From assembly GCA_035714925.1 (NCBI GenBank), contig DASTLN010000126.1, positions 5,106 to 69,105 of the forward strand: a stretch of DNA of 64,000 bases, in the 5' to 3' direction. The position numbers were made by a program, and so were the translations under genes. Source of the stretch: Dehalococcoidia bacterium (GTDB lineage Bacteria > Chloroflexota > Dehalococcoidia > DSTF01 > WHTK01). The stretch's first letter is position 1, and each line of letters opens with the position of its first letter. Under the pieces are notes generated by a model. It was not told where the DNA came from. It searched no databases and worked only from the letters and a program-made list of their open reading frames with translations. Positions 8,986 through 49,194 of this stretch are shown piece by piece.

Positions 8986-9060
8986 GAGAATTCGTGCATC
9001 GGATCCCCGTATATCCCGGTCAAGGCGAAAGCCTCCGCCGGCTGGCAGGACAGGCGTCAT

Positions 9061-10248: not shown

Positions 10249-11321
10249 TACCCGGAAATGGCGTCTGTCATGAGTGCGCCGTTTTGAGTCATGAGTCCTC
10301 GGGCCAGTGCCTGGTCGCGGGCAAGAGCGGTTTCGACGCCGAGGTTGGCGATCTGTAAAAGGTAGGGCAGGGTAGCGGCCGTCAGCGCCGCGGTAGCGGT
10401 CCGCGGGACAGCGCCCGGCATGTTGGCGACGCAATAGTGGATGACGCCCTCTTCGACGTAGACCGGTTCGGCGTGCGTGGTGGGACGCGAGGTGTCGAGT
10501 ATGCCGCCCTGGTCGATCGAAACGTCGACGACGACTGCACCGGGACCGAGCAGCCGCAGGTCGTCGCGTTGGAGCAGGCGTGGCGCCGCGGCACCGCCGT
10601 GGATCAAGATCCCGCTGATAAGAACATCGGCGCCCTCGATGGCGCGACGCAGACTTTCCGGCGTCATGACTTCGGTGCGGATCCGGCCAGGCCACCTCTC
10701 CTCTATGCGCCGCAACTGATCGAGGGTACGGCAGACCACCGTGACGTCGGCGCCCATGCCGACCGCGACAGCGCAGGCGTTGGTCGAAACGTTGCCCGCG
10801 CCGAGGATGACGACGCGGGCGGCCGGTGATCCCGGCAGACCGGACAGCAGCTTGCCGCGTCCACCGCTGGGTTTCTCGAGGAAGTGCGCACCGACCTGGG
10901 TTGCCATTCGGCCGGCAATCTGGCTCATCGGCACCAGCAAGGGCAACGTGCCGTTGGCCAGCTCCACGGTCTCGTAGGCGATGCCGGTGGTCCCGGCGGA
11001 CAGCAATGCCTGCGTCACGGATGGCGCGGCGGCGAGGTGGAGGTAGGTGAACAAGGTCTGGTCAGGGTGAAGATGGCGAAACTCCGGTTCCTGCGGCTCC
11101 TTGACCTTTATGACGAGGCCGGCCTCCTGCCAGACGCGCTCCATCGTCGCCAGCTCCGCGCCGGCGGTGGTGTAGGCGTCATCTGTGAAGCCGCTGCCGA
11201 GCCCGGCTCCGGCCTCGACAATGACGCGGTGGCCGGCGGCCGTGAGCTCCCGGGCGCCCTCGGGCGTCAACCCGACGCGGTACTCTTCCGTCTTCACCTC
11301 TCGGACCGTTCCAACGATCAT
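10248..11321 (-). CDS. ald: alanine dehydrogenase
   Basis: 357 aa. Strong AlaDH/PNT family similarity. NAD-binding motif VVILGAGNVS. Confidence 0.9.
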   Translation of the reverse strand: MIVGTVREVKTEEYRVGLTPEGARELTAAGHRVIVEAGAGLGSGFTDDAYTTAGAELATMERVWQEAGLVIKVKEPQEPEFRHLHPDQTLFTYLHLAAAPSVTQALLSAGTTGIAYETVELANGTLPLLVPMSQIAGRMATQVGAHFLEKPSGGRGKLLSGLPGSPAARVVILGAGNVSTNACAVAVGMGADVTVVCRTLDQLRRIEERWPGRIRTEVMTPESLRRAIEGADVLISGILIHGGAAAPRLLQRDDLRLLGPGAVVVDVSIDQGGILDTSRPTTHAEPVYVEEGVIHYCVANMPGAVPRTATAALTAATLPYLLQIANLGVETALARDQALARGLMTQNGALMTDAISG

Positions 11322-11427
11322 GTCTTGCCTCTCTCGTTATTCGACCGGAGCAAGCGATATGCGGTGCAAGGGAGCGGTTTCGATGAGGCCCGGTGTCGAC
11401 CGCCATCGCGTCCATGACATTCCCAGC

Positions 11428-12753
11428 TTACGGCGAATTGCCGCCGGCTTCGCGGTCCGAATGCCGACTCTCCGGCCGCCAGAGCGAGAGCACTTCCATA
11501 GCGACGACACCGGAGGCGAAGAGTCCGGCGCCCAACGCCAGGACGTCGCGGCTCAGGTTTCCCATCTGCAGCGCGACCAGTAGCAGTCCAATCACCGGCA
11601 GGAGCGGCAGACGCTTCCAGGTCAAGGGCAGGCGGAAGGGGCGCGGCAGATCGGGCTGCCGATAGCGCAGGACGATCAGGGATAGGCAGACCGCCTCGAA
11701 CGCGACGAAGATGGCGAAGTTGCTGGCACCAGCCGCGAACGCGAGCTCCCCGGTGAGCGCGAATGCTGTCGCGAGGCCGAGGCAAAGCACGATGGCTCGC
11801 ACCGGCGTACGCCGCCCGGGGTGGACCCACGCGAGGAACCGCGGCAGCGCGTCCGTGCTGGCCATACCGTAAATCATTCGGCTCGCCGCCACGAGGAGCA
11901 GCAGCATCGTGTTGGCGGTGGAGAAGAGGGCGATCAACGCGACCGCCTGGGACGCCCGGCTACCCAGCACCTCCTTGGCCACGTCGGCCAGTGGCGCGTC
12001 GGAAGTGGTGAGGGCTGCCGCCCCCAGGACGCTGACGGCGGCGACCGCGACCATGATGTAGAGGATTGTGGTGATCAGAATGGCCAGAACCATGGCGCGT
12101 GGGACGGTGCGCGTTGGGTCTTCCGTTTCTTCGGCTAGCGTGGCGACCTCTGAGAAGCCGAGGTAGGCGAACATGACCAGCGAGGCGCCACCCAGGACGC
12201 CCCAGACGCCGGCATCGAACTGTGCGAGGTCGACGTCGCCGAGGTGGGGGATGCCGATGGCAATAATCAAGATCAGCCCGGCGACTTCAACCAGCGTGCC
12301 AACGACCATAACCTTGATGGTTTCATCGACCCCCATAAAGGCGACGCCTGTGGCGACCGCGAGCGCCGCGATTGCTGCCACCGTGGCGTCGACTTCGAAG
12401 AAGGTGTTGAGGTAGCCGCCGAAGCCTAGCGCGACGGCGGCGGCGGCGATGATGTTGCCGATAACCATCAGCCAACCGACGACGAAGGCCGGCCGCTCGC
12501 CCATGGCGCGCAAGGTGTACTCGTAATCGGCGCTGCTCTTGGGGAACATCGAGGCGAGCTCCGCATAGCAGAGCCCGACAATCGATGCGACGACGGCCGC
12601 GAAGACGAAAGAGAGCCAGAGGCCGTTGCCGGCTTCGTCCGCGACGGCGCCAACCAGGGCGTAGACACCGGCGCCCAGGATGATGCCGATCCCGGCCAGC
12701 GTGGTTTCAGTAAGGGAGAGGCTGCGCCGAAGCGTATCCGTCTGGCCAGCCAT
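11428..12753 (-). CDS. APC-family amino acid permease
   Basis: 441 aa, 12 predicted TMs, APC superfamily N-terminal signature. Confidence 0.85.
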   Translation of the reverse strand: MAGQTDTLRRSLSLTETTLAGIGIILGAGVYALVGAVADEAGNGLWLSFVFAAVVASIVGLCYAELASMFPKSSADYEYTLRAMGERPAFVVGWLMVIGNIIAAAAVALGFGGYLNTFFEVDATVAAIAALAVATGVAFMGVDETIKVMVVGTLVEVAGLILIIAIGIPHLGDVDLAQFDAGVWGVLGGASLVMFAYLGFSEVATLAEETEDPTRTVPRAMVLAILITTILYIMVAVAAVSVLGAAALTTSDAPLADVAKEVLGSRASQAVALIALFSTANTMLLLLVAASRMIYGMASTDALPRFLAWVHPGRRTPVRAIVLCLGLATAFALTGELAFAAGASNFAIFVAFEAVCLSLIVLRYRQPDLPRPFRLPLTWKRLPLLPVIGLLLVALQMGNLSRDVLALGAGLFASGVVAMEVLSLWRPESRHSDREAGGNSP

Positions 12754-28657: not shown

Positions 28658-29569
28658 TTAATCTGCTCTGGGACGGGAGTTTGCCGAGAGCGGCGGCCCC
28701 AGACCAGGCGCGTGCTCTAAACGCCCCCCGGGTGCGAAGTCCTCGATGCTGAGGTGCTCGGCCCCCGCCTCCAGGCGCATGCCGTGTGCGATCGTGTTGA
28801 ACGACAGGGAATGCATCGTCATCGCCGTCGCCTCGACGATCCCCCGGTCATCGAGACCGCAGGAATGTCGCAGTATCTGCGTCTGATAGGCGATCCAGTA
28901 CGGGCTCTGCCTGAAGAGCGCGACGGCGAAGGCCGCGCAGTTCTTCACCAGCTCATCGAGGACTCCGGGTCCGAAGATGAGCCGGTTCTTCCGCCATGCA
29001 GCCTCCAGGAAACGAGGGTGGTGCGCGAAGGCACGCCATATGTTCGGCGCTCTGTCCACGTTCAGCGCCGAGCCCGCCCACTCGCGGATCTCCGCCAGAG
29101 TAGCCGCCGCGTCCGGCGCGGAGGCTTCATCGAGGAGCTCCACCGAGGCGATGGCGGGCGCAACCTCATTGGGGATGTCAGGCTCCAGCCGGAACGCCGC
29201 GGCTGCTGCCGTCAAGCTCGCCATGTGCTCGGCGATCGCCGCCAGCTCGACTACGGCGCGGTCACTGTTGGTAAGCCGCATCACGGCGGCTGAGTGGGCA
29301 GTAAGTCAATAATTGCAGTGGTTCGTCATCGATACGGCTGTGTGTATTGCCTCCTTGGCGAGCCGCGGCAGTTTACCCTGCAGCATGTAAGCCATGCCTG
29401 TCTCCGCGTGGTTGGCTTCCAGCCAGGCAGGCCAGTGGGTCTGCACACCGAAGATCGAGGGGTTCAGAAGCTGCTCGGGAGATTGCCCCGTGCGTTTCGC
29501 CATACGTTCCAGGATGGCGCGGTCATCTTCGGAGAAGTCGGACAGTTTGGGAGTTCGGAGAGTAGTCAT
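28658..29569 (-). CDS. AhpD/carboxymuconolactone-decarboxylase (CMD) family protein with in-frame TGA at 29306-29308 at the second catalytic Cys: putative selenoprotein
   Basis: Track ORFs 29306..29569 and 28658..29284 are in the same frame, separated by one TGA plus 7 sense codons. Read-through gives ...EAIHTAVSMTNHCNY-U-LTAH..., matching the AhpD core E-x11-C-x-x-C-x-x-x-H. A hairpin begins about 15 nt after the TGA. Confidence 0.6.
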
Positions 29570-29766
29570 GGACGATCCTCTTGTCTAGTTCTAACTCTTG
29601 CACCTGGCACCACTCTGGCCGCGTTGGGCTTTCTCTGCCCTCTCCTCCCTTTTGTGGGCGAAAGGGAGTCACAGCCAGTATAGCCAGCGCTTTTAAGGAA
29701 CGGCACTTCTGCCAATCGCTTGGACGCAATCCGGGGCCTTCGATCCGCACCTCAATCTCGACCGTT

Positions 29767-36772: not shown

Positions 36773-37717
36773 CTACTGGTCATCTGCGAAGCCAAGTACT
36801 CCCGCGGCGTTCCTGTGCAGTATTCGCTCGATGTCGACCGATGAGAGGCCGGAACCGTTGATGTAGTCGAAGGTCTGCTTGTAAGACTCGAAGCTCAGCA
36901 GCACCGGATAGTCACTCCCCGTCACCAGATGCTCCGCACCGAAGGCTTCAACGGCGCAGTGCAGCGCGGCTAAAGAACCGTGGCCCACCGTGTCGTAGTA
37001 GAAGCGCCGCGCCGTCACGCTCGGCTTTTCCGTTAGGTCGGGGTGCTGCTGTGGCGCCTGGTTGTCGAGCCGTGCAAGGAGCATCGGGATGATACCGCCG
37101 AGATGAGGCACGATCATCTTGATGTTGGGGTAGCGCGAGAGCGTCTTACGAGCAATGTGGTGGAGGACAATCGCACTGTCCTCGAGCGAAGCACCCACGG
37201 AGACAGTGAAGCCGTAGTCGGTAATCATCGGTGAGCAAATGCCGTTCTGTACCGGGTGGTAGAAGACCGTCGTGCCCCGACGGTTCATCTCCTCGTACAA
37301 CGGCTCGAACTCCTCTTCGGCGGTTGACCGGTCAAACACGGAGCAGTTCATGGCCACGCCCGCCATACCCAGTTCGTCAAGGCCCCGAGCCATCTCCTTG
37401 AGAGAGGGGTCGACGTGCGGCAGGGGCAGCGAAACGAAGCCTGCGAAGCGGTGAGGATGCTTCGTAACCAGCTCGGCGTAGCAGTCGTTTAGAACCTTGG
37501 CAGCCTCCGCGCCCTTAGAGGCATCCTCCAGGTATGGCCCCTGCATCGGTGAAAGGACCTGGCGGATGACATCCGCTGCATCCATCATCTCCAGCCGCTT
37601 CACAGTCTCCTGCAGTTGGCCTGCACCTGGCGGTATTCGTGGCGGACGCTCGCTAAGCGCGGCGAGCCTTTTCACGTACTCTGGAGGCAGGTAGTGGGCG
37701 TGGACGTCCGTGATCAT
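36773..37717 (-). CDS. amidohydrolase-2 family protein (ACMSD/LigW-like)
   Basis: 314 aa, MITDVHAHYLP N-terminus. Start overlaps the FAH stop (ATGA). Confidence 0.8.
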   Translation of the reverse strand: MITDVHAHYLPPEYVKRLAALSERPPRIPPGAGQLQETVKRLEMMDAADVIRQVLSPMQGPYLEDASKGAEAAKVLNDCYAELVTKHPHRFAGFVSLPLPHVDPSLKEMARGLDELGMAGVAMNCSVFDRSTAEEEFEPLYEEMNRRGTTVFYHPVQNGICSPMITDYGFTVSVGASLEDSAIVLHHIARKTLSRYPNIKMIVPHLGGIIPMLLARLDNQAPQQHPDLTEKPSVTARRFYYDTVGHGSLAALHCAVEAFGAEHLVTGSDYPVLLSFESYKQTFDYINGSGLSSVDIERILHRNAAGVLGFADDQ

Positions 37718-38700
37718 GGGCCGGTCCGAGCCGCCTGGGGCACCGGCATCTGGAATACGCCTTCTTTCGCCTTGAAGCGATAGTCCGCATCCTCAAAGAC
37801 CTTCGGGCCGATCGTGTTTCTCAGCACGCCGACGCCCTCGATCTCCATCTCGACCACGTCGCCCGGCTGAAGGTATCGTGCCGGCTTGCCGAGGTCCCGG
37901 ATCGCCTCGCCTATCGAGCCGCCCGTGACCGTGCCGCTACCGAGGACATCGCCGGGGACGATGCGGCTGTCGCGGCTGGCGCGCTCGATCATGGCTCCCC
38001 AGCTGTGATAGGCGATGCCGGTGTCGTTCGCCATCCACTCGACGCCGTTGACCCTGACGCTGCAGCGGGTGTGCAGACGGCCGTCATGGACCGTCAGCTC
38101 GTCCGGCGTCACCAGCATTGGGCCGAGCGACGTGGCCGCGTCCTTGCCCTTGGCCGGACCGAGGCCAACGGCCTGCTCGTCGCGCTGCAAGTCACGACAG
38201 CTCCAGTCATTGAAGATGGTGAAGCCGGCCACGTAGTCCAGCCAGTCGGCGTCGCGTACGTTGCTGCCTTCCTTGCCGATGACCAGCCCGACCTCCAGCT
38301 CGTAATCGAGCACAGCGGCGGCGGACGGGTAGGGGACGGAGTCTCCGGGGCCGAAAATGCGTAGCGGGTTGGAGAAATAGAAGATGGGCAGGCGGTACCA
38401 GGCTTCGGCCTGCTGCCGCGTACCGCCTCCGGTTGCGTGGCCCTCGTAGACCATGAAGTCGCGCACGGTGGGCGGCTGCAGGATTGGAGCGCGGAGCCGG
38501 ACCTGATTCAGAGGCGTGCCCTTCCCGGCCGGCGAGGCCGCACGAAGGCGGTCAAGGGGGTTGTCCGGCAGCTCGAGGAGTGCGCGTAAGTCGCGTAGGC
38601 CGGCGCTCACGCCCAGCAGGTCTGCGGCGTCGTGGACGCTATCGCCGACGACCAAGCCGGCCGCGGGTCCGTTGCCTGTGTCGTATGTCACGAGTCTCAT
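37714..38700 (-). CDS. fumarylacetoacetate hydrolase (FAH) family protein
   Basis: 328 aa. FAH-fold blocks (YELEVGLVIGKEG..., FTIFNDWSCRD). Confidence 0.85.
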   Translation of the reverse strand: MRLVTYDTGNGPAAGLVVGDSVHDAADLLGVSAGLRDLRALLELPDNPLDRLRAASPAGKGTPLNQVRLRAPILQPPTVRDFMVYEGHATGGGTRQQAEAWYRLPIFYFSNPLRIFGPGDSVPYPSAAAVLDYELEVGLVIGKEGSNVRDADWLDYVAGFTIFNDWSCRDLQRDEQAVGLGPAKGKDAATSLGPMLVTPDELTVHDGRLHTRCSVRVNGVEWMANDTGIAYHSWGAMIERASRDSRIVPGDVLGSGTVTGGSIGEAIRDLGKPARYLQPGDVVEMEIEGVGVLRNTIGPKVFEDADYRFKAKEGVFQMPVPQAARTGP

Positions 38701-38723
38701 CCGGGGTCCTCCTGGCCGACGCG

Positions 38724-39572
38724 CTAGCGCTGCACTATGTGCTTGTAGATATTGCTGACGTTCATGCCGTTCAGCCGATCGCTTATCGCAAACAGCCGTT
38801 GGCCGATGGGATACGGGTCCAGGCTCGGCACGTCCAGCGGCTGGGCCAGCGCCTCTTCTTCCGTCATGCCGCGCCGCACGAAGTCCTCCACCGTACCGAG
38901 CCAGTTCTGGATGATCTGTGTCTGCTCAGACAGATAGCGTTTGTCGCAGGTCTCGCCGTGGCCGGGAGCGATGACGTCCACGTCCATCGCCTCCATCGCC
39001 TTGAGCGCATCCAGCCACTCCCAGGGGTCGGCCTCCTGGATGAAGGTTTTACACTTGTAGAAGATGTTGTCGCCGGTGAAGACCACGCCCTCCTCCGGCA
39101 CCAGGATCGCGGTTTGCGGCTTGGTGTGGCCCGGGAGATGCGTGATCTCAAAGGTGTGATTGCCGACCTTGAGCGTGAGCTCCTTGTCGAAGGTCCGCGT
39201 GGGCGGGTTGGGCGGGTAGTCCGGGTGGTTGACCAGCCAGACGCTGTCGGGATCGGTCTCCTTCAGCCGTTCGAGGCGTTCGCCGGAGGTCATCTGCGGA
39301 ATCGCATCCTCGTAGCGCTTCTTGAGTCCTTCCTGACCGACGACCTCGACGCCGGGAAAGTAGGCATTGCCGCTAATGTGGTCGCCGTGCGGTTCAGTGT
39401 TGATCAAGTACCGGATCGGACCGTGCTCGAGGATCGTCTCGCGCCAGCGCAGCGCATCGATTGGTTCCTGAGGGGTATCGATCATGACCACGCCGTCGTT
39501 GGTGACGACGAAGCTGGGGTTACAGCCCCAGAAGTAGACCTCGGTGTAGGCGTTCTTGCCGACGCGTCGCAT
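38724..39572 (-). CDS. MBL-fold metallo-hydrolase
   Basis: 282 aa. HxHxDH-type motif (EPHGDHISG). Confidence 0.8.
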   Translation of the reverse strand: MRRVGKNAYTEVYFWGCNPSFVVTNDGVVMIDTPQEPIDALRWRETILEHGPIRYLINTEPHGDHISGNAYFPGVEVVGQEGLKKRYEDAIPQMTSGERLERLKETDPDSVWLVNHPDYPPNPPTRTFDKELTLKVGNHTFEITHLPGHTKPQTAILVPEEGVVFTGDNIFYKCKTFIQEADPWEWLDALKAMEAMDVDVIAPGHGETCDKRYLSEQTQIIQNWLGTVEDFVRRGMTEEEALAQPLDVPSLDPYPIGQRLFAISDRLNGMNVSNIYKHIVQR

Positions 39573-39582
39573 GTGATCCCTC

Positions 39583-40824
39583 CTACTTCGCCCAGAGTCG
39601 CTTCGAGGCGAGCTGCGCCCCTTGGACCATCGCCCTTAACTTCTCCCACATCGGCTCAGAGTGGACACGGGGCAGAAAGCCGGCGAAGGTACCGAAGCCG
39701 CAGTCTGGCGCCGCGATGACGTTTTCGCGGCCCACGATGTTGGCGTAGCGGATGATGCGCTGGGCGACCAGCTCCGGGGGCTCTATGAACAGGCTGACCG
39801 AGTCGATGACGCCAGGGATGAGGATCTTCCCGTCCGGGAGCTTGACGTCCTCCCAGACCTCATACTCGTGCTCATGGCGCGGATTGGCTGCCTCAATCGT
39901 GTAGGCCTGCGCTTTGACCTGGAGAACGATGTCGACGATGTCCTTGAGGGGCACGTCCCGATGGTGCGTCCCGTAAGTGTTGCCCCAGCAGATGTGAAAG
40001 CGGATGCGATCCTCAGGGATGTTTTGAAGAGCGTGGTTAAGCGCCTCGACACGAAGGGCCAGGTGCTTCCTGTAGTCCTCGAAAGGAATCTGCCACAGCT
40101 GGCGGTTGCGCATCATCGGCACGTCCGGGGCGTCCAGCTGGAGCAGGAAGCCGGCGTTGACGATGGCCTCGTACTCCAGCTTCATCGCGTCGGCCAGCGC
40201 ATAGAGATACTCGCTATCGGACTTGTAGTGGGCGCTGCGGATCATGAAGATGACCTGCCCCACGGCCACGGATGGCATGAACGCCTCTTCGTACTGCAGT
40301 CCCGTCAGCGCCTCCTTGAGGTTGGCGAGGTCCGTCTCCAGTTCCCCGCGCTCGTCTTTCCAGCCGATGGGGCCGATGTTGCGCGGCAGCGTGCCGATCT
40401 GCGCCGCGACCGGTGAGCGGCCGGGGGGCGGCGCAGCAGTCGCGGCGGTGGCTGAGCCGCTGCCCAGGCCGACGCCGCCGATGGGTCCGGCGCGCCCATA
40501 GCGACGCGAGATTTCGGCAAACTCGGGAAAGTCGTCAGGCGGACCGGGCCAGGGTTCCGATTCGACCGCCTCGAATCCGGAGAGGCGGTCCTTCATGTAG
40601 TTCGTGAAGCTGCCCTTGCTAATCTCGCCGTCCGCGACGATGTCGATGCCGACCTCGACCTGCTTCTTGACGACGGCCGCGACCTCTTCTTTCACACGCC
40701 GCGCCAGCAGGTCTTTATCGTACGGCTCGCCGGCGTCCTTGGCCAGGAGCATCTCGCGAATGTCGGGCGGCCGTGGCAGGCTGCCCACGTGAGTGGTAAG
40801 GATTCGATCGGTGCTCCGCTTCAT
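39583..40824 (-). CDS. MetE-like Zn-dependent methyltransferase family protein (paralog of 32936..34138)
   Basis: 413 aa. Conserved N-terminus (RILTTHVGSLPRPPD), Zn ligands H-x-C (FHICWG), E, C (PDCGF). Confidence 0.8.
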   Translation of the reverse strand: MKRSTDRILTTHVGSLPRPPDIREMLLAKDAGEPYDKDLLARRVKEEVAAVVKKQVEVGIDIVADGEISKGSFTNYMKDRLSGFEAVESEPWPGPPDDFPEFAEISRRYGRAGPIGGVGLGSGSATAATAAPPPGRSPVAAQIGTLPRNIGPIGWKDERGELETDLANLKEALTGLQYEEAFMPSVAVGQVIFMIRSAHYKSDSEYLYALADAMKLEYEAIVNAGFLLQLDAPDVPMMRNRQLWQIPFEDYRKHLALRVEALNHALQNIPEDRIRFHICWGNTYGTHHRDVPLKDIVDIVLQVKAQAYTIEAANPRHEHEYEVWEDVKLPDGKILIPGVIDSVSLFIEPPELVAQRIIRYANIVGRENVIAAPDCGFGTFAGFLPRVHSEPMWEKLRAMVQGAQLASKRLWAK

Positions 40825-40830
40825 TTCGAG

Positions 40831-42390
40831 TTACGCCTCTTTGCTTGTTTCAAGGTCCGCCGGTGCGCCCGTTCCCGGGCTGGAGCCCTGCCGGCCGTTC
40901 GCCGCTGGCGGTTGACCCGGCCCGGGCGGCGCCATGTTCCGCAAATACTCCACGTCGACGGCCGGCATCTCGACGTCGAGCGTGGCGAGCACTCGGCGGG
41001 TCAGTTCGTTACCTCGATCGAACCAGCGCTGCATCCTGCTGCGCCAGAGGGCGAGGCCGCCGCTGGCGTGCATCTCAAAGGCGGACTCGCGGCCGTCGAG
41101 GCCGGACGAGACGTGGTCCCAGACGAGGTTGAGCAGCGCGGCCCGCTGCTGCGCCGTGTAGCCCCCGCCGCCAAAGGACTTCTCCAGGTACGCGGCCATC
41201 TCCGTGTCCTCGAAGTCAGCGTCTGTCGGCGTGATGACGAGAGAGGACCCCGGCAGGTCGCGCAAGATCTCAGCCATACGCTGACGGACGCTCAGTGTGT
41301 AGACGGTGGACGAGACCAGGTGTAGCGGGTTGGGATAGAGATAACCCGCCGTAGACGTCTGTGGTTCCAGGGTCGCGGCCGTGAGGCAGCTTCGCATCGT
41401 CTGGGCGTGGATCATCAGGTCGACCAGCCGCGCCACGATTGCCGGGCTCTCCCGCTGCCCCATGGCGTCAGCCACGGCCAGTGCAAGGCCCAGCGTGAAG
41501 TCGGCGCGAGCCAGGTAAGAGTGCTGGTGGTGCCACACCAGCCAGCAGAAGATGCGGTCACGCTGCTGCGTCTCTTCAGGCGGTGGCGGCTCGAAGCGGT
41601 AGGCGAAGACCTTCTCCCAGGGCACGAGTACGTCTTCCAGCCAGAGGTGCGCGTCGAGCTCGTCGTAGCGGCTGGACAGCGGCGACATGAACGGCGTTTG
41701 GTAGCGCGCGGCGGGGCGGCGCGCTACAACGCGGGCTCCGGGGCTGTTGACTGCCACGGCGATCATCGCCCGCTGATTCACGTCGGGCCGCTGCAGCCCG
41801 ATGTAAACGTCGTGCGCGAAGGGCGTGCTGGTGTGCATCCCGGTCCGGCCCGAGACGACGAGTCCGGCATCGGTCTCTTTGACGATGCGCAGCGCCGAGT
41901 GCTCGCTCGGGTCGCGAAAGCGGTCGCCCAGGACCGCGGCCCCGCCCGTGAGAGTGAGAAAGAAGCCGTCGCGCTCCAGCGAATCGCGGTAGGCCTTGGC
42001 AACCGCGGGACGTCCTCCGCCCGCATCGCCGATGATCTCTGCGGCGTCCAGGATTCCCAGCGCAATCAGCGCGCCGTATGCGGGCGTGTGTGTCGCGTTG
42101 CCGGCGCTGACGATGGCCTGCGCGTAGATCGAGCGGCTCAGGCGGACCAGGTCCTCGGCTGTGCGCGGGATCCGTAGGCCGAGCGGCCGCCGGACGCCGT
42201 CCTCGTCGGGGTCGCAAAGGAGGTCATCGGCCCATTCGGGATCGGAGTGACGGTCGTACCAGAGGGCGTACTCGTCCACCAGCCCCTTGGTGGCCGGGTG
42301 CGCGGTGAGGTCCGGGACGTCTCCTTCGCCGAGGACCCAGACCTTGCGCCCGTCCCGCAGGCTGCTCTTGTACTCCGTCCCGGTCAGCAC
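40831..42390 (-). CDS. 4-hydroxyphenylacetate 3-monooxygenase (HpaB) family oxygenase component
   Basis: 519 aa. HpaB-type N-terminus (LTGTEYKSSLRDGRKVWVLGE) and family length. Confidence 0.8.
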   Translation of the reverse strand: MLTGTEYKSSLRDGRKVWVLGEGDVPDLTAHPATKGLVDEYALWYDRHSDPEWADDLLCDPDEDGVRRPLGLRIPRTAEDLVRLSRSIYAQAIVSAGNATHTPAYGALIALGILDAAEIIGDAGGGRPAVAKAYRDSLERDGFFLTLTGGAAVLGDRFRDPSEHSALRIVKETDAGLVVSGRTGMHTSTPFAHDVYIGLQRPDVNQRAMIAVAVNSPGARVVARRPAARYQTPFMSPLSSRYDELDAHLWLEDVLVPWEKVFAYRFEPPPPEETQQRDRIFCWLVWHHQHSYLARADFTLGLALAVADAMGQRESPAIVARLVDLMIHAQTMRSCLTAATLEPQTSTAGYLYPNPLHLVSSTVYTLSVRQRMAEILRDLPGSSLVITPTDADFEDTEMAAYLEKSFGGGGYTAQQRAALLNLVWDHVSSGLDGRESAFEMHASGGLALWRSRMQRWFDRGNELTRRVLATLDVEMPAVDVEYLRNMAPPGPGQPPAANGRQGSSPGTGAPADLETSKEA

Positions 42391-42403
42391 GATGCGCTCC
42401 TCA

Positions 42404-42853
42404 CTAACTCTTGCTCACTTCCGCCTGGGATGACTCAATCATCGACCTCACGAGCGGCCCGGCAGTGCCCTCGTTCAGCATCCAACTGCACAGCGTGTGG
42501 GTGCGCCAACCGGCCGCCTCGAAGGGCTCGCTGGCCGCTATGGCCTCGGCAGCCTCGCGAGACGGCGCCACGATGAAGTACATGCCGCTGGCATCGATCA
42601 GCCTCTCGCCGGCCGGGGTGCTGTCGCGGTACTTCACCAGCGTCGAGGCGCGGCCGAAGTCGTCGAGCGGGCCGGCGGCCAGGAGGATGCCCTTGTCCTC
42701 CATCTCGAGCTGGAACTGCAGATGGCGGCGCATGATCTCGCGGCCTTCCTCGGACTCGGTGTCGTACTTCTCGGTCGGCCGCATAAAGATGGCATAGAGC
42801 TGCAACCGCGCCATGCGGGACATGATCTCGTCCATCGACATCTCGCGTGTCAT
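42404..42853 (-). CDS. YciI-like (Dabb) domain protein
   Basis: 149 aa. YCII-related fold signature. Confidence 0.55.
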   Translation of the reverse strand: MTREMSMDEIMSRMARLQLYAIFMRPTEKYDTESEEGREIMRRHLQFQLEMEDKGILLAAGPLDDFGRASTLVKYRDSTPAGERLIDASGMYFIVAPSREAAEAIAASEPFEAAGWRTHTLCSWMLNEGTAGPLVRSMIESSQAEVSKS

Positions 42854-42871
42854 CGCCTTTTCCTCCCGGCC

Positions 42872-43858
42872 TTAGGCCTGCATTTTCAGTAGCCGGCGGG
42901 CGTTGCCGTTGAGCATCTTTCCCTTGTCTTCTTCCGACAGCGGCACTGTCTCCATCCATCGCATGCCGGGCAGGTTCTCCACGAAGGGCCAGTCGACGGA
43001 GAACAGGACCCGGTCGATTCCCATCTGGAGGATGGTGCAGAGCAGCGCGGGTGTGGAGAAGAAGCCGCTGGTCGTGACGTAGAAGTGGTCGCAGAACGTC
43101 TTCTTGAACTCCATGGGCTTGCTGCCCTCGCGTTTGAACGCCTCGTCCATGCGGTCGAGCATGAAAGGCAGACCTTCGCCGAGGTGGCCGAGGATGATCT
43201 TCAGGTCAGGGAAGCGGTTGAATAGCCCGCTGAGCACCATGCGCATTGCCTGGTTCGCCGTGTCGATCGTGTAGCCCCAGGCTGCCGAGGTGAGCCACGG
43301 GAAGTCGGGGATGAAGTCTCCGTAGTATGCCTCCACGACGGCGGGATGGGGCGGGCCGGGATGGAGGTAAATCGGCACGTCCAGCGCCTGAGCGCGCTCG
43401 AAGATGGGATAGAACCGCTCATCGTCGTGGAACGCGCCCTGGCTGCGTCCGTGGATCATGGCGCCTTTGAAGCCGAGCTTCCTGACGCAGCGTTCCAGCT
43501 CTTCGGCAGCGGCCCCGGGGTGCGGCGTCGGCAGCGCCGCGAAGCCCGCGAAGCGCTCGGGATGCCTGGCGACGGCCTCGGCCAGCCGGTCGTTGGCGCC
43601 GATGGCCATCTCCACGGCCTTGTCCGGCTCCAGCTGTTGCACCGGTGACGGCGTATGCGACAGCACCTGCACGTCTATGCCCGCCGCATCCATGTCACGC
43701 AGCCGTACCTCGCCGAGATCCGGCAGGCGTTGGAAGATACCCGACGTAGGCGATCTGGCCTGGCCGCCGCCGTCTGGCCGTGGCGCACCGGCCTGCAGGA
43801 GCGGGTCGGCATAATGCTCTTCCAGGGCGATAACGAAGGGCTTGGTCGATTGAGTCAC
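42872..43858 (-). CDS. amidohydrolase-2 family protein (third paralog)
   Basis: 328 aa. ALEEHYADP N-terminus, amidohydrolase-2 blocks. Confidence 0.8.
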   Translation of the reverse strand: MTQSTKPFVIALEEHYADPLLQAGAPRPDGGGQARSPTSGIFQRLPDLGEVRLRDMDAAGIDVQVLSHTPSPVQQLEPDKAVEMAIGANDRLAEAVARHPERFAGFAALPTPHPGAAAEELERCVRKLGFKGAMIHGRSQGAFHDDERFYPIFERAQALDVPIYLHPGPPHPAVVEAYYGDFIPDFPWLTSAAWGYTIDTANQAMRMVLSGLFNRFPDLKIILGHLGEGLPFMLDRMDEAFKREGSKPMEFKKTFCDHFYVTTSGFFSTPALLCTILQMGIDRVLFSVDWPFVENLPGMRWMETVPLSEEDKGKMLNGNARRLLKMQA

Positions 43859-43954
43859 GCTGGACCTCGAGAGCTAAGTGCGACCGCGCAGTCGACTCAG
43901 GATGCTTCGCTTCATGACTCAACCCTTCATGATTCGGGGCGGGCGTAGCTATGG

Positions 43955-44908
43955 TTAGACCGGCGGCGCCACCCAAAGGCCCGTGTCGGGCTGACGCATC
44001 CGGGTCGAGGGCAGGTCTCCGGCCTGTGCCTGCCTGGCGGGTGGGTCCATCTGCGTGCCCGCAGGCCGGCCGGGCATCTGGGCCGTGCCCCACATGTCGG
44101 TCGGTGGATGCTCGCGCGGCGTCCAGGCGCTTTCGTCCGTGATCTGCTCAACTTCCGAGGTGTACTCGGAGACGTTGCCCTGGGGATCGAAGAAGTAATA
44201 GAAGGTGTTGTCGCCGGCCGAGTGCCTGCCGGGGCCCATCAGGATGCGCGCGCGCCCATCCTTCATCACACGCCCGGACCCGCGCATCATGTCGTCAATG
44301 CTGCCCACTTCGAACGCGACGTGGTTCAGCGTCGCGACTTCTCCGTCGGCGATTGCAAGGCTGTGGTGATTGGCGTTGCAGCGGTAGAAGCCCATGAAAG
44401 GGATCCAGTCCGAGAGCTTGAAACCCAGGCGTTCCGCGTAGAACGCCTCGACCTCCTTGCGGTTGGGTGAGTTCAGCACGACGTGGTTGAGGGTAACCGG
44501 TATTCCCTCGCGGGGTTCGACCTCTCGGAAAGACCTTTGCTCCACCCCAGCCGACACTTCTACGACGCGGCCGTCGGGGTCGAAGAAACGGAAGCCATAG
44601 CCGCCGCCCGGCGTTTGCAGCTGGCCGGGCTCGGACACGAAGCGAACTCCGGCTGCCGCGAGGTCGGCGGCGAGCTGGTCAATGTCTTCGGGGGAGTCGG
44701 CGCCCAACGCGATCAGGTCGAGGCGCTTCTCGTCCGCCTTCCGGATTCGGTAGACGTATTGCTCGGGAGAACCTTCCGCGGCGAGGAAAGCGATGTCCTT
44801 CTCGCCGTCCGTCCGCTTCAACCCCCAGACACCGCCATAGAAGTCAACCTGCTGTTCGAAGTCTGGTACGGCCACGTCTACGTGCCTGAGACTGCTTACT
44901 TTCGCCAT
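43955..44908 (-). CDS. extradiol ring-cleavage dioxygenase (two-domain VOC, catechol 2,3-dioxygenase-like)
   Basis: 317 aa with tandem VOC domains (HVDVAVPDF..., LNHVVLNSPN..., LNHVAFEV). Confidence 0.8.
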   Translation of the reverse strand: MAKVSSLRHVDVAVPDFEQQVDFYGGVWGLKRTDGEKDIAFLAAEGSPEQYVYRIRKADEKRLDLIALGADSPEDIDQLAADLAAAGVRFVSEPGQLQTPGGGYGFRFFDPDGRVVEVSAGVEQRSFREVEPREGIPVTLNHVVLNSPNRKEVEAFYAERLGFKLSDWIPFMGFYRCNANHHSLAIADGEVATLNHVAFEVGSIDDMMRGSGRVMKDGRARILMGPGRHSAGDNTFYYFFDPQGNVSEYTSEVEQITDESAWTPREHPPTDMWGTAQMPGRPAGTQMDPPARQAQAGDLPSTRMRQPDTGLWVAPPV

Positions 44909-44931
44909 GAGTATCCTCCGTCTAATGAGTG

Positions 44932-46092
44932 CTAATGAAACGGGTCGAGGGGCGGCAGGCCCAGGGCCGCTCGTCCGTACCCCTCCGCGATGGAATCCCA
45001 GTAGAGTGCCATCTGATGCGAGCCGGCGTGGATGTCACGGTGGAACCGCTGCAAGGCCTGCGACTCGTAGAGAGCATGGCCGCCGCTGGCCTCGAATAGC
45101 CGGTTCGCGGCCTGCAGGCAGAGCTTTGCCACATAGCCATAGTCGCGGCGAATCCTTGCCTGCTCGAGTTCGTTCGGCAGTTCACCACGCGAAGCCTGTT
45201 CCAGCACCTCTCGCGGCGTGGTCTTGACAATGCGCCTGGCGGCGTCGATTTCGGCCGAAGACTCAGCGATTCGCAATTGGATCGCAATTGAGTCGGCCGT
45301 GCGACCCGGACCGGTCTTGCCCTGAAGCTTCTCGATGAAAGCATCGAGCATGCCCTGGGCCATGCCTACCAGCGGGGAGCACAGCGTGAAGGGCAGCAGG
45401 CTCATCGTCGGCAACCGGTAGCTCGGCCGACCGTGGAGCTCGAACCCTGGGCTGTCGTAACCGGGGAGCATGAGTGCTGCGACGCGGTGAGCCGGGACAA
45501 ACGCGTCCTTGATTTCGATGTCCTTGCTCCCCGTCCCGCGCAGGCCGGAGACGAACCACGTGTCCAGGATCTCGTAGTCTGAGCGCGGCACGAGGGCCAT
45601 GCACGGGCCAGCCGGCCCCATCGCCCCGAGCATGGCCCAGCTGGCGCCATCGCTACCGCTGGAGAAATCCCAGTGCCCGTTAAGGCGGAAGCCGCCCTCC
45701 ACGGGTTCGATTCTTCCCTGAATCGCAAAGGCGCTGGAGCCGAGCACGTCCGGCCCGGCCGCGAAGTACTCTTCCTGGGCCTCCAGCGGCCAGTGGCCGA
45801 TCATCCAGTCGTGACTGGACCACACGGAGAAGCACCAGGCCGTGGAGCCGCAAGCGCGGCCGATCTCCATGTCGAGCTCGAAGTAGAGGTCCATGTCGGC
45901 GCCGTCATAGCCCCCGAAACGGCGCGGGTTGCCGACTCGAAGCAATCCGGCGGACCTGAGGTCGTCGATGGTCGCCTGCGGTATCTGGCGCAGCTTCTCA
46001 GCCTCTGACGCGCGTTCCTTGAGGACAGGCAGGAGGTCGGCGGCTCGATTCAGCAGGTCCTCCCTGCTGACGGTCTCGGCTTCGATGGCCAT
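44932..46092 (-). CDS. acyl-CoA dehydrogenase-type flavin-dependent monooxygenase oxygenase component (HsaA/C2-like; paralog of 31741..32877)
   Basis: 386 aa, ACAD domains. Divergent from the LysR gene. Confidence 0.8.
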   Translation of the reverse strand: MAIEAETVSREDLLNRAADLLPVLKERASEAEKLRQIPQATIDDLRSAGLLRVGNPRRFGGYDGADMDLYFELDMEIGRACGSTAWCFSVWSSHDWMIGHWPLEAQEEYFAAGPDVLGSSAFAIQGRIEPVEGGFRLNGHWDFSSGSDGASWAMLGAMGPAGPCMALVPRSDYEILDTWFVSGLRGTGSKDIEIKDAFVPAHRVAALMLPGYDSPGFELHGRPSYRLPTMSLLPFTLCSPLVGMAQGMLDAFIEKLQGKTGPGRTADSIAIQLRIAESSAEIDAARRIVKTTPREVLEQASRGELPNELEQARIRRDYGYVAKLCLQAANRLFEASGGHALYESQALQRFHRDIHAGSHQMALYWDSIAEGYGRAALGLPPLDPFH

Positions 46093-49165: not shown

Positions 49166-49194
49166 CACTTCCTAACGAAGGGGAAGGATTGGAC

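What the first reader, a model, noticed from the sequence alone, without database searches (positions are those of the whole stretch)
28658..29569. AhpD/CMD-family gene with an in-frame TGA exactly at the second catalytic cysteine (CxxU...H): probable selenoprotein split by gene callers
Two minus-strand ORFs (29306..29569, 87 aa; 28658..29284, 208 aa) share a frame and are separated only by one TGA (29306-29308) plus 7 sense codons. The upstream part ends ...LAKEAIHTAVSMTNHCNY. Reading through gives HCNY-U-LTAH, which reproduces the AhpD/CMD catalytic signature S-x-x-N-x-C-x-Y-C-x-x-x-H. The Glu sits 12 residues before the first Cys, as in M. tuberculosis AhpD (E118/C130/C133/H137), with Sec in place of the second Cys. 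The mRNA has a 6-bp GC-rich hairpin (AGCCGC-CGUGAU-GCGGCU, GU in the loop) starting about 15 nt after the UGA, consistent with a bacterial SECIS. AhpD-like proteins are an established bacterial selenoprotein family, so the TGA landing on this exact residue is unlikely to be chance.
Basis: partly seen in the sequence, partly recalled or inferred. Interest (0 to 1): 0.8.

Follow-up and report, generated by a model that had tools for sequence, protein, structure and literature searches.

The report
Selenocysteine AhpD-like gene split by annotators
What public annotation lists as two adjacent hypothetical proteins is almost certainly one 303-residue AhpD-like redox enzyme with selenocysteine, encoded by an in-frame UGA, at its active site; it is a sound but unsurprising addition to a known class of bacterial selenoproteins.

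Summary

- **The gene.** Window 29569..28658 (minus strand) is one reading frame with a single TGA at codon 88. The context is E73-x11-C85-N-Y-U88-L-T-A-H92. The Pfam CMD and TIGR00778 AhpD-core matches run across the TGA.
- **Conservation.** All 27 related loci, 44-77% identical and from several phyla, have TGA at this codon. Their real terminators are mixed (13 TGA, 9 TAG, 2 TAA). dN/dS is 0.04-0.18 on both sides of the TGA.
- **Cys form.** A full-length homologue (P0140, 40% identity) has TGC at this codon and lacks the hairpin.
- **Hairpin.** GCCGC-CGUGNU-GCGGC lies 20 nt from the UGA to its loop. It meets all four published bacterial SECIS rules. It has the strongest synonymous-site conservation in the gene and two pairs with compensatory changes.
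- **Same genome.** At least two more TGA-at-active-site genes are present: an OsmC-like UxxT gene at window 50597 and a deiodinase-like gene 7.5 kb beyond the window.
- **Annotation.** NCBI lists the gene as two hypothetical proteins.
- **Not shown.** selA, selB, selC and selD are not in the roughly 92 kb I could read. Nothing has been tested experimentally.

AhpD-like CxxU selenoproteins have been catalogued since 2005, so this is a new member, perhaps a new subfamily, of a known kind.

The parts
28658..29569 (-). Complete read-through coding sequence: 303 codons (Met1...Asp303, Sec at 88) plus TAA stop. NCBI annotates it as two hypothetical proteins, VFS30_06995 (87 aa) and VFS30_06990 (208 aa).
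   Evidence: single frame, one TGA. (CMD and AhpD-core HMMs span the TGA). (NCBI names). (dN/dS 0.04-0.18 on both sides).
29576..29580 (-). Shine-Dalgarno-like GAGGA, 6 nt upstream of the ATG at 29569-29567.
   Evidence: Read directly. Function inferred.
29306..29308 (-). UGA codon 88, read as selenocysteine. It takes the place of the second Cys of the AhpD CxxC motif, the counterpart of M. tuberculosis AhpD Cys133.
   Evidence: TGA in 27 of 27 loci. Cys (TGC) in homologue P0140. Aligned with the second Cys in PDB AhpD-like chains.
29294..29353 (-). Catalytic signature E73-x11-C85-x2-U88-x3-H92. Codons: Glu 29353-29351, Cys 29317-29315, Sec 29308-29306, His 29296-29294.
   Evidence: Among 24 orthologues: Glu 22 (Gln in 2), Cys 24, TGA 24, His 24.
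29274..29291 (-). Putative bacterial SECIS hairpin AGCCGC-CGUGAU-GCGGCU. In most orthologues the stem is 7-8 bp.
   Evidence: RNAalifold predicts the same stem. 97.3% of cells are paired and 2 pairs show compensatory changes. Synonymous codon identity is 0.80 at codons 94-99, against a gene mean of 0.47 and the highest 6-codon stretch in the gene. MFE is -8.8 to -14.2 kcal/mol. All four consensus rules quoted in PMC13188914 are met. The hairpin is absent from the Cys form.
28760..29152 (-). Second, degenerate AhpD-core-like repeat (about residues 140-270). It has no CxxC; FRQSPYWIAYQ occupies the place of the motif.
   Evidence: Residues 140-209 align to residues 2-71 of the 2ouw AhpD core. 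Homologue P0140 hits TIGR04169 at 196-247. The AF2 model is helical here but of low confidence.

Best explanation
Window 29569..28658 (minus strand) is a single gene for a roughly 33 kDa, two-repeat AhpD/CMD-family redox protein. Its active site is Cys85-x-x-Sec88, flanked by Glu73 and His92.

**Translation (inferred from anatomy and comparison).** The ribosome reaches UGA88. The hairpin 15 nt downstream (GCCGC stem, CGUGAU loop) recruits SelB-GTP-Sec-tRNA(Sec). Selenocysteine is inserted instead of termination, and the full 303-residue chain is made.

**Chemistry (inferred from family knowledge of M. tuberculosis AhpD).** Sec88 sits where the nucleophilic Cys133 sits in AhpD. As a selenolate it attacks an oxidised partner, either a hydroperoxide or the sulfenate or disulfide of a peroxiredoxin-type protein. 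Cys85 then resolves the adduct into a selenenyl-sulfide, which a thiol donor reduces again. Glu73 and His92 act as the proton relay. The C-terminal repeat has lost the motif and is probably structural.

**Shown here:** the frame, the conserved TGA, the Cys counterpart, the conserved and covarying hairpin, and other selenoprotein-type genes in the same genome.

**Not shown:** the Sec machinery, selenium incorporation, and the substrate.
For: 1. One frame and one TGA, with the CMD and AhpD-core HMMs spanning it.
2. TGA at the same codon in 27 of 27 loci. These come from Dehalococcoidia and other Chloroflexota, Beta- and Gammaproteobacteria, Rokuibacteriota, Acidobacteriota and Dormibacterota at 44-77% identity. 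True terminators are mixed. dN/dS is 0.04-0.18 upstream and downstream of the TGA.
3. The database picture is what universal mis-splitting would produce. All 120 listed hits of 246 are post-TGA fragments of roughly 185-217 aa, apart from one 308-aa call that also begins just after the TGA. An exhaustive phmmer search with the N-terminal 87 aa against 1.84 billion representatives gave 28 hits, and those that reach the query's C-terminal end nearly all stop exactly at the TGA.
4. Sec/Cys pair: P0140, 267 aa, 40% identical over 261 residues, has GCRHCIDVH with TGC at this codon.
5. In solved AhpD-like structures the second Cys of CxxC aligns with the TGA.
6. The hairpin is supported by the RNAalifold consensus, by compensatory changes in L023, L024 and L025, by the peak of synonymous-site conservation, by all four bSECIS consensus rules, and by its absence from the Cys form.
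7. TGA is an ordinary stop for 17 of 40 Pfam-supported genes in the window, so the genome is not recoded.
8. The same genome has an OsmC-like gene with TGA at UxxT (window 50597; OsmC HMM spans it). It also has a deiodinase-like gene with EFGAIT-TGA-PPF and a GGUC-loop hairpin (L027, 100% identical to the window over the 12,120-nt overlap).
9. Flanks of related loci carry further CxxU and UxxC genes interrupted by TGA. One locus has selD next door, fused to an oxidoreductase domain, together with SenA and SenB.
Against: - No selA, selB, selD or tRNA-Sec was found in the window or in the rest of the contig that I could reach, about 92 kb in all. That is a small part of the genome, so the test remains open.
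- The hairpin is short, and folded alone it is no more stable than shuffled sequence.
- Part of the A-A-V-x-R-L amino-acid conservation under the hairpin also occurs in Cys-containing AhpD-like proteins (3c1l ...HGAAVRQL). The protein therefore contributes to the nucleotide conservation. The synonymous-site and compensatory evidence is what is specific to the RNA.
- The invariant GTG in the loop could in principle serve as a restart codon.
- The predicted structure is only partly confident, and Foldseek matches to AhpD folds are weak (E >= 0.011).
- There is no experimental evidence.
Confidence: 0.9

Rival explanations
1. The TGA is a real terminator. The locus makes two polypeptides, an 87-aa N-terminal piece and a roughly 208-aa piece restarted at the GTG or ATG 7-8 codons downstream. 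They might assemble into a split AhpD-like protein, with the hairpin and the invariant GTG serving termination-reinitiation.
For: Every gene caller, including NCBI's, produces exactly this model. GTG (Val96) is invariant and lies in the hairpin loop, where it would be accessible.
Against: - The break would fall inside the CxxC motif and inside one HMM domain.
- The Cys-form homologue is a single chain.
- The stop is TGA in 27 of 27 loci, although real terminators of the same genes use TAG and TAA in 11 of 24.
- There is no purine-rich ribosome-binding site before the GTG.
- The starts picked by an ORF finder vary among loci, at offsets +3, +9, +15 and +24 from the TGA.
- The hairpin fits the SECIS rules.
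Confidence: 0.04
2. The UGA is read through without selenocysteine. Either a near-cognate or suppressor tRNA inserts Trp, Cys or Gly, or the organism uses a code in which TGA is a sense codon.
For: Nothing here proves which amino acid is inserted. No Sec machinery was seen in the sequence available.
Against: - TGA ends 17 of 40 well-supported genes in the window, and the same holds for 13 of 24 orthologue terminators. There is therefore no genome-wide recoding.
- The codon sits exactly at a redox Cys, which is where Sec/Cys exchange is the rule.
- A SECIS-type hairpin co-occurs with TGA and is missing from the TGC form.
- The other TGA-interrupted genes in the same genome are also at known Sec positions: deiodinase TUPPF and OsmC UxxT.
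Confidence: 0.03
3. The gene is a pseudogene, or the TGA is a sequencing or assembly error in a Cys codon (TGC or TGT changed to TGA).
For: It is a single-base difference from a Cys codon. One relative (L001) has an extra TGG-to-TGA change at codon 49, so nonsense changes or errors do occur in these assemblies.
Against: The same TGA appears in 25 distinct sequences from independent assemblies and several phyla, with strong purifying selection on both sides. The window sequence agrees 100% with an independent ENA contig where the two overlap.
Confidence: 0.01
4. This is a rival on function only. The protein is a genuine selenoprotein, but it is not a peroxide or peroxiredoxin reductant. It would instead be a redox accessory of metalloid or organometallic metabolism (Se, As or Hg type), or of the aromatic-catabolic cluster in which it sits in this window.
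For: - In the most divergent members (L021, L022, L025) the gene lies beside a TrsS/Tes-like radical SAM enzyme, a DVU_1556-like methyltransferase and a MerA-like flavoprotein. In L009 it lies beside an ArsM-like methyltransferase, SenA, SenB and an oxidoreductase-SelD fusion.
- The same radical SAM plus methyltransferase pair is on this genome's contig (L027 3063-5251).
- In the window the gene is co-oriented with an LLM oxidoreductase, an alpha/beta hydrolase and an Amidohydro_2 gene, inside a HpaB, dioxygenase and FAA-hydrolase region.
Against: - No neighbour is conserved across most of the 25 loci.
- The radical SAM and methyltransferase hits are below NCBIfam cut-offs (344-356 bits against 490, and 118-141 against 155).
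- The Cys form sits next to an AhpC-TSA_2 protein, and several Sec forms sit near Prx-like UxxC genes. That fits the classical peroxiredoxin link.
- In this window the radical SAM and methyltransferase pair is about 40 kb away.
Confidence: 0.15

Closest known systems
AhpD-like / CMD-like CxxU selenoproteins: 'AhpD-like 1' (COG2128) and 'AhpD-like 2' (pfam02627) of Zhang & Gladyshev (PMC1088965, PMC2398784). The 2026 review PMC13188914 lists them as 'AhpD-like protein TIGR01926 CxxU' and 'CMD-like protein PF02627 CxxU'.
   Same: Same superfamily (PF02627 hit above the gathering score). Same CxxU motif, with Sec replacing the second Cys. A bSECIS hairpin lies just downstream. Prx-like selenoprotein genes occur nearby in some loci, as reported for AhpD-like 2.
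   Different: - It is about 300 aa, with a second CxxC-less AhpD-core repeat. The usual proteins are single units of roughly 110-190 aa.
- It scores below the TIGR01926 cut-off (44.2 against 81.8).
- Within reach of the searches it is nearly always the Sec form, with one full-length Cys relative found. The catalogued families have more Cys than Sec homologues (902 against 299 and 207 against 70 in GOS).
Mycobacterium tuberculosis AhpD (PDB 1knc, 1gu9)
   Same: Identical spacing of the catalytic residues, E-x11-C-x2-C/U-x3-H. The phmmer alignment has an offset of +45, giving E118/C130/C133/H137. The fold class is all-helical.
   Different: Sequence similarity is very low (E = 0.36). M. tuberculosis AhpD has Cys, not Sec. 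There is no evidence here for an AhpC plus lipoamide partner system.
NF041238 'AhpD_rel_CFYUT' alkylhydroperoxidase-related (seleno)protein, and NF041537 ArsM/AhpD-domain selenoprotein
   Same: Both are AhpD-type domains with CxxU that NCBI models explicitly as selenoproteins.
   Different: The NF041238 score is 19.4 against a cut-off of 175. NF041537 gave no match at E <= 1. The motif here is C-N-Y-U-L, not CFYUT. There is no methyltransferase fusion.
Escherichia coli fdhF-type bacterial SECIS and the bSECISearch consensus model
   Same: A stem-loop directly downstream of the UGA within the coding sequence. G then U at loop positions 2-3. 20 nt from the UGA to the loop (allowed range 16-37). 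6-8 bp stem. MFE <= -7.5 kcal/mol.
   Different: The loop is a hexaloop, CGUGNU, rather than GGUC with a bulged U. There is no extended lower stem. Binding to SelB is untested.

Membership tests
Bacterial selenoprotein gene (UGA decoded as Sec) | In-frame UGA conserved at the same codon among orthologues, with coding constraint on both sides | tested here: met
   TGA in 27 of 27 loci. dN/dS 0.04-0.18 upstream and downstream. Terminal stops are mixed.
Bacterial selenoprotein gene (UGA decoded as Sec) | A homologue with Cys aligned to the UGA | tested here: met
   P0140, 40% identity over 261 residues, has TGC at the position. The second Cys of CxxC in PDB AhpD-like chains aligns with it.
Bacterial selenoprotein gene (UGA decoded as Sec) | [quoted passage not shown] | tested here: met
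   Rules taken from PMC13188914. Loop CGUGNU, stem 6-8 bp, 20 nt spacing, MFE -8.8 to -14.2. Covariation and synonymous-site conservation.
Bacterial selenoprotein gene (UGA decoded as Sec) | selA, selB, selC (tRNA-Sec) and selD present in the same genome | not testable with these tools
   None found in the 64-kb window or in about 28 kb more of the same contig. The rest of the genome is out of reach. Indirect support comes from two more TGA-at-active-site genes in the same genome.
Bacterial selenoprotein gene (UGA decoded as Sec) | Selenium demonstrably incorporated (75Se labelling or mass spectrometry) | not testable with these tools
   This needs an experiment.
AhpD/CMD superfamily (PF02627; TIGR00778 AhpD core domain) | HMM match above the curated cut-off | tested here: met
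   PF02627 38.2 bits against 23. TIGR00778 33.3 bits against 27.8. Both span the TGA.
AhpD/CMD superfamily (PF02627; TIGR00778 AhpD core domain) | Catalytic signature Glu...Cys-x-x-Cys...His with AhpD spacing | tested here: met
   E73/C85/U88/H92. Conserved in 22, 24, 24 and 24 of 24 orthologues respectively. Aligned to 1gu9 residues 118/130/133/137.
AhpD/CMD superfamily (PF02627; TIGR00778 AhpD core domain) | All-helical AhpD fold | tested here: inconclusive
   In the AF2 model of the Cys homologue the N-terminal domain is helical with pLDDT 80-95, but the C-terminal half is poor. The top 40 Foldseek PDB hits are all AhpD/CMD-family or related all-helical proteins, but E >= 0.011 and TM <= 0.27 when normalised by query length.
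AhpD/CMD superfamily (PF02627; TIGR00778 AhpD core domain) | Hydroperoxidase or peroxiredoxin-reducing activity | not testable with these tools
   This needs enzymology. Context hints only: AhpC-TSA_2 next to the Cys form.
TIGR01926 'peroxidase-related enzyme' subfamily | Score at or above the curated cut-off (81.8 bits) | tested here: not met
   44.2 bits, matching only residues 4-121.
NF041238 AhpD_rel_CFYUT (seleno)protein | Score at or above the curated cut-off (175 bits), with the CFYUT motif | tested here: not met
   19.4 bits. The motif here is CNYUL.
Gamma-carboxymuconolactone decarboxylase (PcaC) proper | Match to a PcaC equivalog model, with no redox CxxC | tested here: not met
   No PcaC model appears among the NCBIfam hits at E <= 1. 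The protein carries the redox CxxU-H signature instead.

The most novel reading that the evidence does not exclude
This would be a distinct, essentially Sec-obligate two-repeat AhpD-like subfamily, spread across soil and groundwater phyla together with a nearly invariant SECIS. Its real role would be as the redox partner of a metalloid or organometallic pathway, not general peroxide defence. The candidate pathway components are the TrsS/Tes-like radical SAM enzyme, the DVU_1556-like methyltransferase and the MerA-like reductase, plus the SenA/SenB/SelD selenoneine genes in one case.
Probability: 0.12. Interest if true: 0.55.

Novelty: new member of a known kind. Interest (0 to 1): 0.33.

Why it matters
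- **Annotation.** The gene and its roughly 250 database relatives are filed as truncated hypothetical proteins. The N-terminal third, which holds half the active site, is either a separate 87-aa ORF or missing. NCBI's own record of this MAG shows the split (VFS30_06995 and VFS30_06990). No NCBIfam model specific to this family scored above its cut-off, so a model that allows Sec would repair many records.
- **Biology.** The result adds a soil Dehalococcoidia MAG, and relatives in Rokuibacteriota, Acidobacteriota, Dormibacterota and Proteobacteria, to the organisms that invest selenium in AhpD-type redox chemistry. The hairpin is conserved almost base for base across phyla, which makes it a convenient probe for SelB-SECIS recognition outside the model organisms.
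- **Limits.** It does not change what is known about selenoproteins in general.

Tried and rejected
- **Single-sequence fold around the UGA.** Not more stable than shuffles. Stability alone is no evidence.
- **Rfam and ARAGORN.** Rfam at gathering thresholds found nothing in the window. ARAGORN found no tRNA-Sec in the window or in 30 loci.
- **Sec machinery.** Pfam scans of 40 window ORFs found no sel genes. tblastn with E. coli SelA, SelB and SelD, recalled from memory and used only as a lead, hit only L009, which NCBIfam then confirmed as a SelD fusion.
- **Walking the contig.** I walked ENA contig k141_4310402 outward by exact-protein look-ups. There were no sel genes, only an integrase and relaxase island. 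Extension at the left end of the window failed: the first gene is not on record and the next contig ends there.
- I used the 87-aa N-terminal piece and the Cys homologue P0140 instead.
- **Structure.** AF2 on P0140 alone gave pLDDT 47.7 and was unusable. With alignment A3 only the N-terminal domain is reliable. Foldseek then gave the right family but weak scores.
- **Literature.** The BSepDB supplements are not held, and Haft & Tolstoy 2025 (PMC12013261) is not held. I could not check whether this exact subfamily is already listed there.
- **Conserved neighbourhood.** Rejected as a general feature. No neighbour recurs in more than 6 of 25 loci.
Full report
**1. The observation.**

On the minus strand an ATG at 29569 opens a frame that runs to TAA at 28660-28658.
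- GAGGA lies 6 nt upstream of the ATG.
- The frame has one internal stop, TGA at 29308-29306 (codon 88).
- ORF finders list 29306..29569 (87 aa) and 28658..29284 (208 aa, GTG start) in the same frame, seven sense codons apart.
- The context is KEAIHTAVSMTNHCNY-TGA-LTAHSAAVMRL, that is E73-x11-C85-x2-[TGA]88-x3-H92.
- The hairpin AGCCGC/CGUGAU/GCGGCU occupies 29291..29274.

**2. The TGA lies inside one domain, on the second catalytic Cys.**

With Cys substituted for the stop, Pfam CMD (PF02627, 38.2 bits against a cut-off of 23) matches residues 58-127. The AhpD core domain TIGR00778 (33.3 bits against 27.8) matches residues 65-114. Both span codon 88.

Against PDB sequences the local alignments put the TGA on the second Cys of CxxC.
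- 3c1l: AVSSINHCYYCLTAHGAAV.
- 2ouw: AVSTANSCSYCAHSHTAA.
- M. tuberculosis AhpD (1gu9/1knc): query 67-122 aligns with chain 112-166. The offset of 45 maps E73/C85/U88/H92 onto E118/C130/C133/H137.

Residues 140-209 align with the N-terminal half of the 2ouw AhpD core. The C-terminal half of the protein is therefore a second AhpD-core-like repeat that has lost the CxxC.

**3. Comparative evidence.**

*Database hits are fragments.*
- A word-indexed search of 5.8 billion proteins returned 246 hits. All 120 listed cover only 59-69% of the query. Most are 184-217 aa, and the sequences I retrieved all begin just after the TGA.
- An exhaustive phmmer search of 1.84 billion representatives with the 87-aa N-terminal piece returned only 28 hits. 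Those that reach the query's C-terminal end are nearly all 109 aa or shorter and end exactly at query residue 87.
- This is what results if gene callers split the gene everywhere.

*The DNA confirms it.*
- I collected 26 related loci: two by exact-protein look-up and 24 from the species-representative genome collection.
- All of them, like the window, have an in-frame stop at the homologous codon with the N-terminal part conserved in frame. In all 27 the stop is TGA.
- By record title the loci come from MAGs labelled as follows:
  - Chloroflexota of several classes: Dehalococcoidia, Chloroflexia and Limnocylindria;
  - Betaproteobacteria (including Burkholderiales and Hydrogenophaga) and Gammaproteobacteria;
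  - Rokuibacteriota;
  - Acidobacteria (including Vicinamibacterales);
  - Dormibacterota.
- They are 44-77% identical to the window protein.
- As an internal control, the true terminators of 24 orthologues are 13 TGA, 9 TAG and 2 TAA.
- Pairwise dN/dS is 0.04-0.18 for codons 2-87 and 0.06-0.17 for codons 89-290, with pS 0.26-0.67. Both halves are coding, and synonymous sites have turned over while the TGA has not.
- C85, TGA88 and H92 are invariant. E73 is Glu in 22 of 24 orthologues and Gln in 2.

**4. A Cys counterpart.**

P0140 (267 aa, NCBI assembly GCA_000763215.1) is 40% identical over 261 residues. It reads ...VSMASGCRHCIDVH..., with Cys aligned to the TGA. Its codon is TGC, and the homologous stretch downstream has no equivalent hairpin. 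It reads UCGAGCAUCCUGCUCCGGCAUG, and the best local fold is -5.2 kcal/mol. Its neighbour is an AhpC-TSA_2 protein.

**5. The RNA element.**

*Structure and covariation.* In an ungapped 75-nt alignment of 25 distinct sequences, RNAalifold predicts one helix (columns 29-35 with 42-48) closing a hexaloop CGUGNU.
- For the 6-pair core, 97.3% of cells are standard pairs. Versions slid by one to three columns give 23-64%.
- Two pairs carry compensatory changes: C-G to G-C in L023 and L024, C-G to U-A in L025, and G-C to A-U in L024.
- No shuffle out of 500 reached the observed covariation score. The tool warns that this shuffle control is not a probability for related sequences.

*Synonymous sites.* Codon identity among residue-identical pairs averages 0.47 over the gene. 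It is 0.80 over codons 94-99, the highest 6-codon stretch in the gene, and Ala94 and Val96 are at 1.00.

*Consensus rules.* The published bSECIS rules, quoted from PMC13188914, are all met.

| Rule | Requirement | Found here |
|---|---|---|
| Apical loop | 3-9 nt | 6 nt |
| Upper stem | 4-16 bp | 6-8 bp |
| G in loop | within the first two positions | G at position 2, followed by U |
| UGA to loop | 16-37 nt | 20 nt |
| MFE | <= -7.5 kcal/mol | -8.8 to -14.2 kcal/mol |

*Caveats.* Folded alone, the 81-nt region is no more stable than shuffles (z = -0.22). Part of the AAVxRL peptide is also found in Cys-type AhpD-like proteins.

**6. Does this genome use Sec?**

*Machinery.* The window has no tRNA gene and no Rfam match. 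There is no SelA, SelB or SelD among 40 Pfam-scanned ORFs or by tblastn.

*Source organism.* The window overlaps ENA contig k141_4310402 (sample ERZ27256989) at 100% identity over 12,120 nt. NCBI holds the same MAG as 'TPA: Dehalococcoidia bacterium'. There this gene is two hypothetical proteins, VFS30_06995 (87 aa) and VFS30_06990 (208 aa). I walked the contig about 28 kb beyond the window. I found no sel genes, one tRNA-Arg, and an integrase and relaxase island. The machinery test is therefore open.

*Indirect evidence is good.*
- TGA terminates 17 of 40 supported genes in the window, so the code is standard.
- A second gene in the window has TGA at a known Sec position. It lies on the plus strand at 50315-50896, with SPLGYFTTAIGF-TGA(50597)-MGTH, a UxxT motif.
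  - The OsmC HMM (47 bits against 27.5) spans the stop.
  - A hairpin UGCGGGC-GUC-GCCCGCA starts 14 nt after the UGA.
  - OsmC-like UxxT is a listed selenoprotein family.
- About 7.5 kb beyond the window, the same contig has a deiodinase-like gene with EFGAIT-TGA-PPF.
  - The hairpin is GGCGA-GGUC-UCGCC, 12 nt after the UGA.
  - It hits T4_deiodinase at 57 bits and AhpC-TSA at 61.9 bits.
- The flanks of related loci hold further TGA-interrupted redox genes with hairpins in L013, L015, L020, L022 and L023: AhpD-like CxxU, Prx-like W-U-P-Y-C and DUF3179 T-W-U-P-L-C.
- In L009 the gene lies next to SenA, SenB and an oxidoreductase-SelD fusion.

**7. Mechanism.**

- **Shown:** one frame, a conserved UGA at the CxxC position, a Cys counterpart, a conserved and covarying SECIS-type hairpin, and other Sec-type genes in the genome.
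- **Inferred for translation:** SelB bound to the hairpin delivers Sec-tRNA(Sec) to UGA88, giving a 303-residue protein.
- **Inferred for chemistry,** from what is known of M. tuberculosis AhpD (family knowledge, not tested here):
  - The residue equivalent to Cys133 is the attacking nucleophile, so Sec88 would be the selenolate that attacks a peroxide or an oxidised peroxiredoxin-type partner.
  - Cys85 would resolve the adduct to a selenenyl-sulfide.
  - Glu73 and His92 would relay protons.

The substrate is unknown. The peroxiredoxin link is supported by AhpC-TSA_2 next to the Cys form and by Prx-like selenoprotein genes near some Sec forms.

A metalloid link is hinted at by neighbours of the most divergent members: a TrsS/Tes-like radical SAM enzyme, a DVU_1556-like methyltransferase and a MerA-like flavoprotein in L021, L022 and L025, and ArsM-like and SenAB genes in L009. 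All of the radical SAM and methyltransferase hits are below cut-off. No neighbour is conserved across the family.

In this window the gene sits co-oriented between an alpha/beta hydrolase and an Amidohydro_2 gene, in an aromatic-catabolism region.

**8. Structure.**

- AF2 on the Cys homologue alone failed (pLDDT 47.7).
- With a 50-row alignment of fragments, the N-terminal domain is helical and confident (pLDDT 80-95). The C-terminal half is not.
- Foldseek against the PDB lists AhpD/CMD-family structures first (2ouw, 2q0t, 3c1l, 2prr, RclX 7y4r, 1knc), but with E >= 0.011 and low TM.
- This is consistent with the assignment but inconclusive.

**9. Comparison with what is known, and novelty.**

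AhpD-like CxxU selenoproteins were described from the Sargasso Sea and GOS data. AhpD-like 1 had 299 Sec and 902 Cys sequences, and AhpD-like 2 (pfam02627) had 70 Sec and 207 Cys. Current catalogues list them, together with NF041047, NF041238 and an ArsM/AhpD fusion. Clustering of Prx-like and AhpD-like selenoprotein genes is also on record.

The present protein belongs to the superfamily but fails the specific models: TIGR01926 at 44.2 bits against 81.8, and NF041238 at 19.4 against 175.

Its particular features are as follows.
- The two-repeat architecture of about 300 aa.
- The near-absence of Cys forms among detectable relatives.
- A SECIS conserved almost base for base across phyla.
- Universal mis-annotation.

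I could not check BSepDB or Haft & Tolstoy 2025 for this exact subfamily. I rate it a new member, possibly a new subfamily, of a known kind.

**10. Verdict.**

- Confidence that the UGA encodes Sec is about 0.9.
- Confidence in the peroxide or peroxiredoxin-type function is moderate.
- Interest is modest at 0.33. The finding is a clean, useful annotation correction and a tidy SECIS example, but not a surprise to a specialist.

Noticed in passing
window 50315-50896 (+), TGA at 50597-50599: A second split selenoprotein candidate in the window. It is an OsmC-like protein of 193 aa with SPLGYFTTAIGF-TGA-MGTH (UxxT). The OsmC HMM spans the stop (47 bits against 27.5). A hairpin UGCGGGC-GUC-GCCCGCA starts 14 nt after the UGA. 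ORF finders list it as 50189-50599 and 50600-50896.
   Followed up: partly
L027 1641-2354 (-), TGA at 2153; same contig as the window, about 7.5 kb beyond window position 64000: A deiodinase-like / Prx-fold gene with EFGAIT-TGA-PPF. Its hairpin is GGCGA-GGUC-UCGCC, 12 nt after the UGA. The gene caller split it into 67-aa and 141-aa pieces. The surrounding 10 kb is rich in redoxin, thioredoxin and glutaredoxin genes.
   Followed up: partly
L027 3063-5251 (+); also L021 1596-4018, L022 7934-10250, L025 7629-9329: A radical SAM protein with an N-terminal zinc ribbon is paired with a DVU_1556-like methyltransferase. The radical SAM protein's best NCBIfam hits are TrsS and tetraether lipid synthase Tes, at 344-356 bits and below cut-off. 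In L021, L022 and L025 the radical SAM gene lies within about 1-2 kb of the AhpD-like selenoprotein gene. In L021 and L022 the methyltransferase and a MerA-like flavoprotein are there as well. The function of this module is unknown.
   Followed up: partly
L009 2028-11867: In a Gammaproteobacteria MAG the AhpD-like selenoprotein gene lies next to selenoneine genes SenA (6968-8401) and SenB (8352-9302) and an 835-aa pyridine-nucleotide-disulfide oxidoreductase-SelD fusion (9360-11867). An ArsM-like methyltransferase ORF ends in ...SSSCC-TGA at 3075, with an open frame continuing beyond it. That may be another selenoprotein.
   Followed up: partly
L013 3224, 4405, 5796, 7975; L020 4802, 5522; L022 7497; L023 1158; L015 5545: Clusters of further TGA-interrupted redox genes lie around the orthologues: AhpD/CMD-like CxxU paralogues, Prx-like W-U-P-Y-C and DUF3179 T-W-U-P-L-C. 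Each has a stem-loop 10-16 nt after the UGA. The Rokuibacteriota locus L013 carries five selenoprotein-type genes in 8.5 kb.
   Followed up: partly
L001 9875-9877 compared with L004 6145-6147: The Dehalococcoidia strain behind L001 has an extra TGG-to-TGA change at codon 49 of the same gene. The 98.5% identical L004 keeps Trp. This is either an assembly error or a recent inactivation.
   Followed up: no
L017 and L018: Within the orthologous gene and the short flanks I compared, the two loci are identical. One record is labelled 'uncultured Bifidobacteriaceae bacterium' and the other 'Vicinamibacterales bacterium'. One of the bins is probably mislabelled or contaminated.
   Followed up: no
L008 and L010 (both on contig CBDCMQ010000009.1): One Dehalococcoidia MAG carries two paralogous copies of the gene about 235 kb apart, 65% and 60% identical to the window protein. 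Both have the TGA and the hairpin.
   Followed up: no
L033 1809-3107 and 14632-17102 (same contig, beyond the window): A tRNA-Arg(TCT) is followed by a phage-type integrase, with Replic_Relax and TraG-like genes about 12 kb further on. This is probably an integrated mobile element between the redox island and the rest of the contig.
   Followed up: no
window 36773-46092 and 49138-55916: A dense aromatic-catabolism region. It contains an HpaB-type hydroxylase, an extradiol dioxygenase (Glyoxalase fold), three FAA-hydrolase-family genes, three Amidohydro_2 genes across the window, CoA-transferase subunits, a thiolase and a LysR regulator.
   Followed up: no
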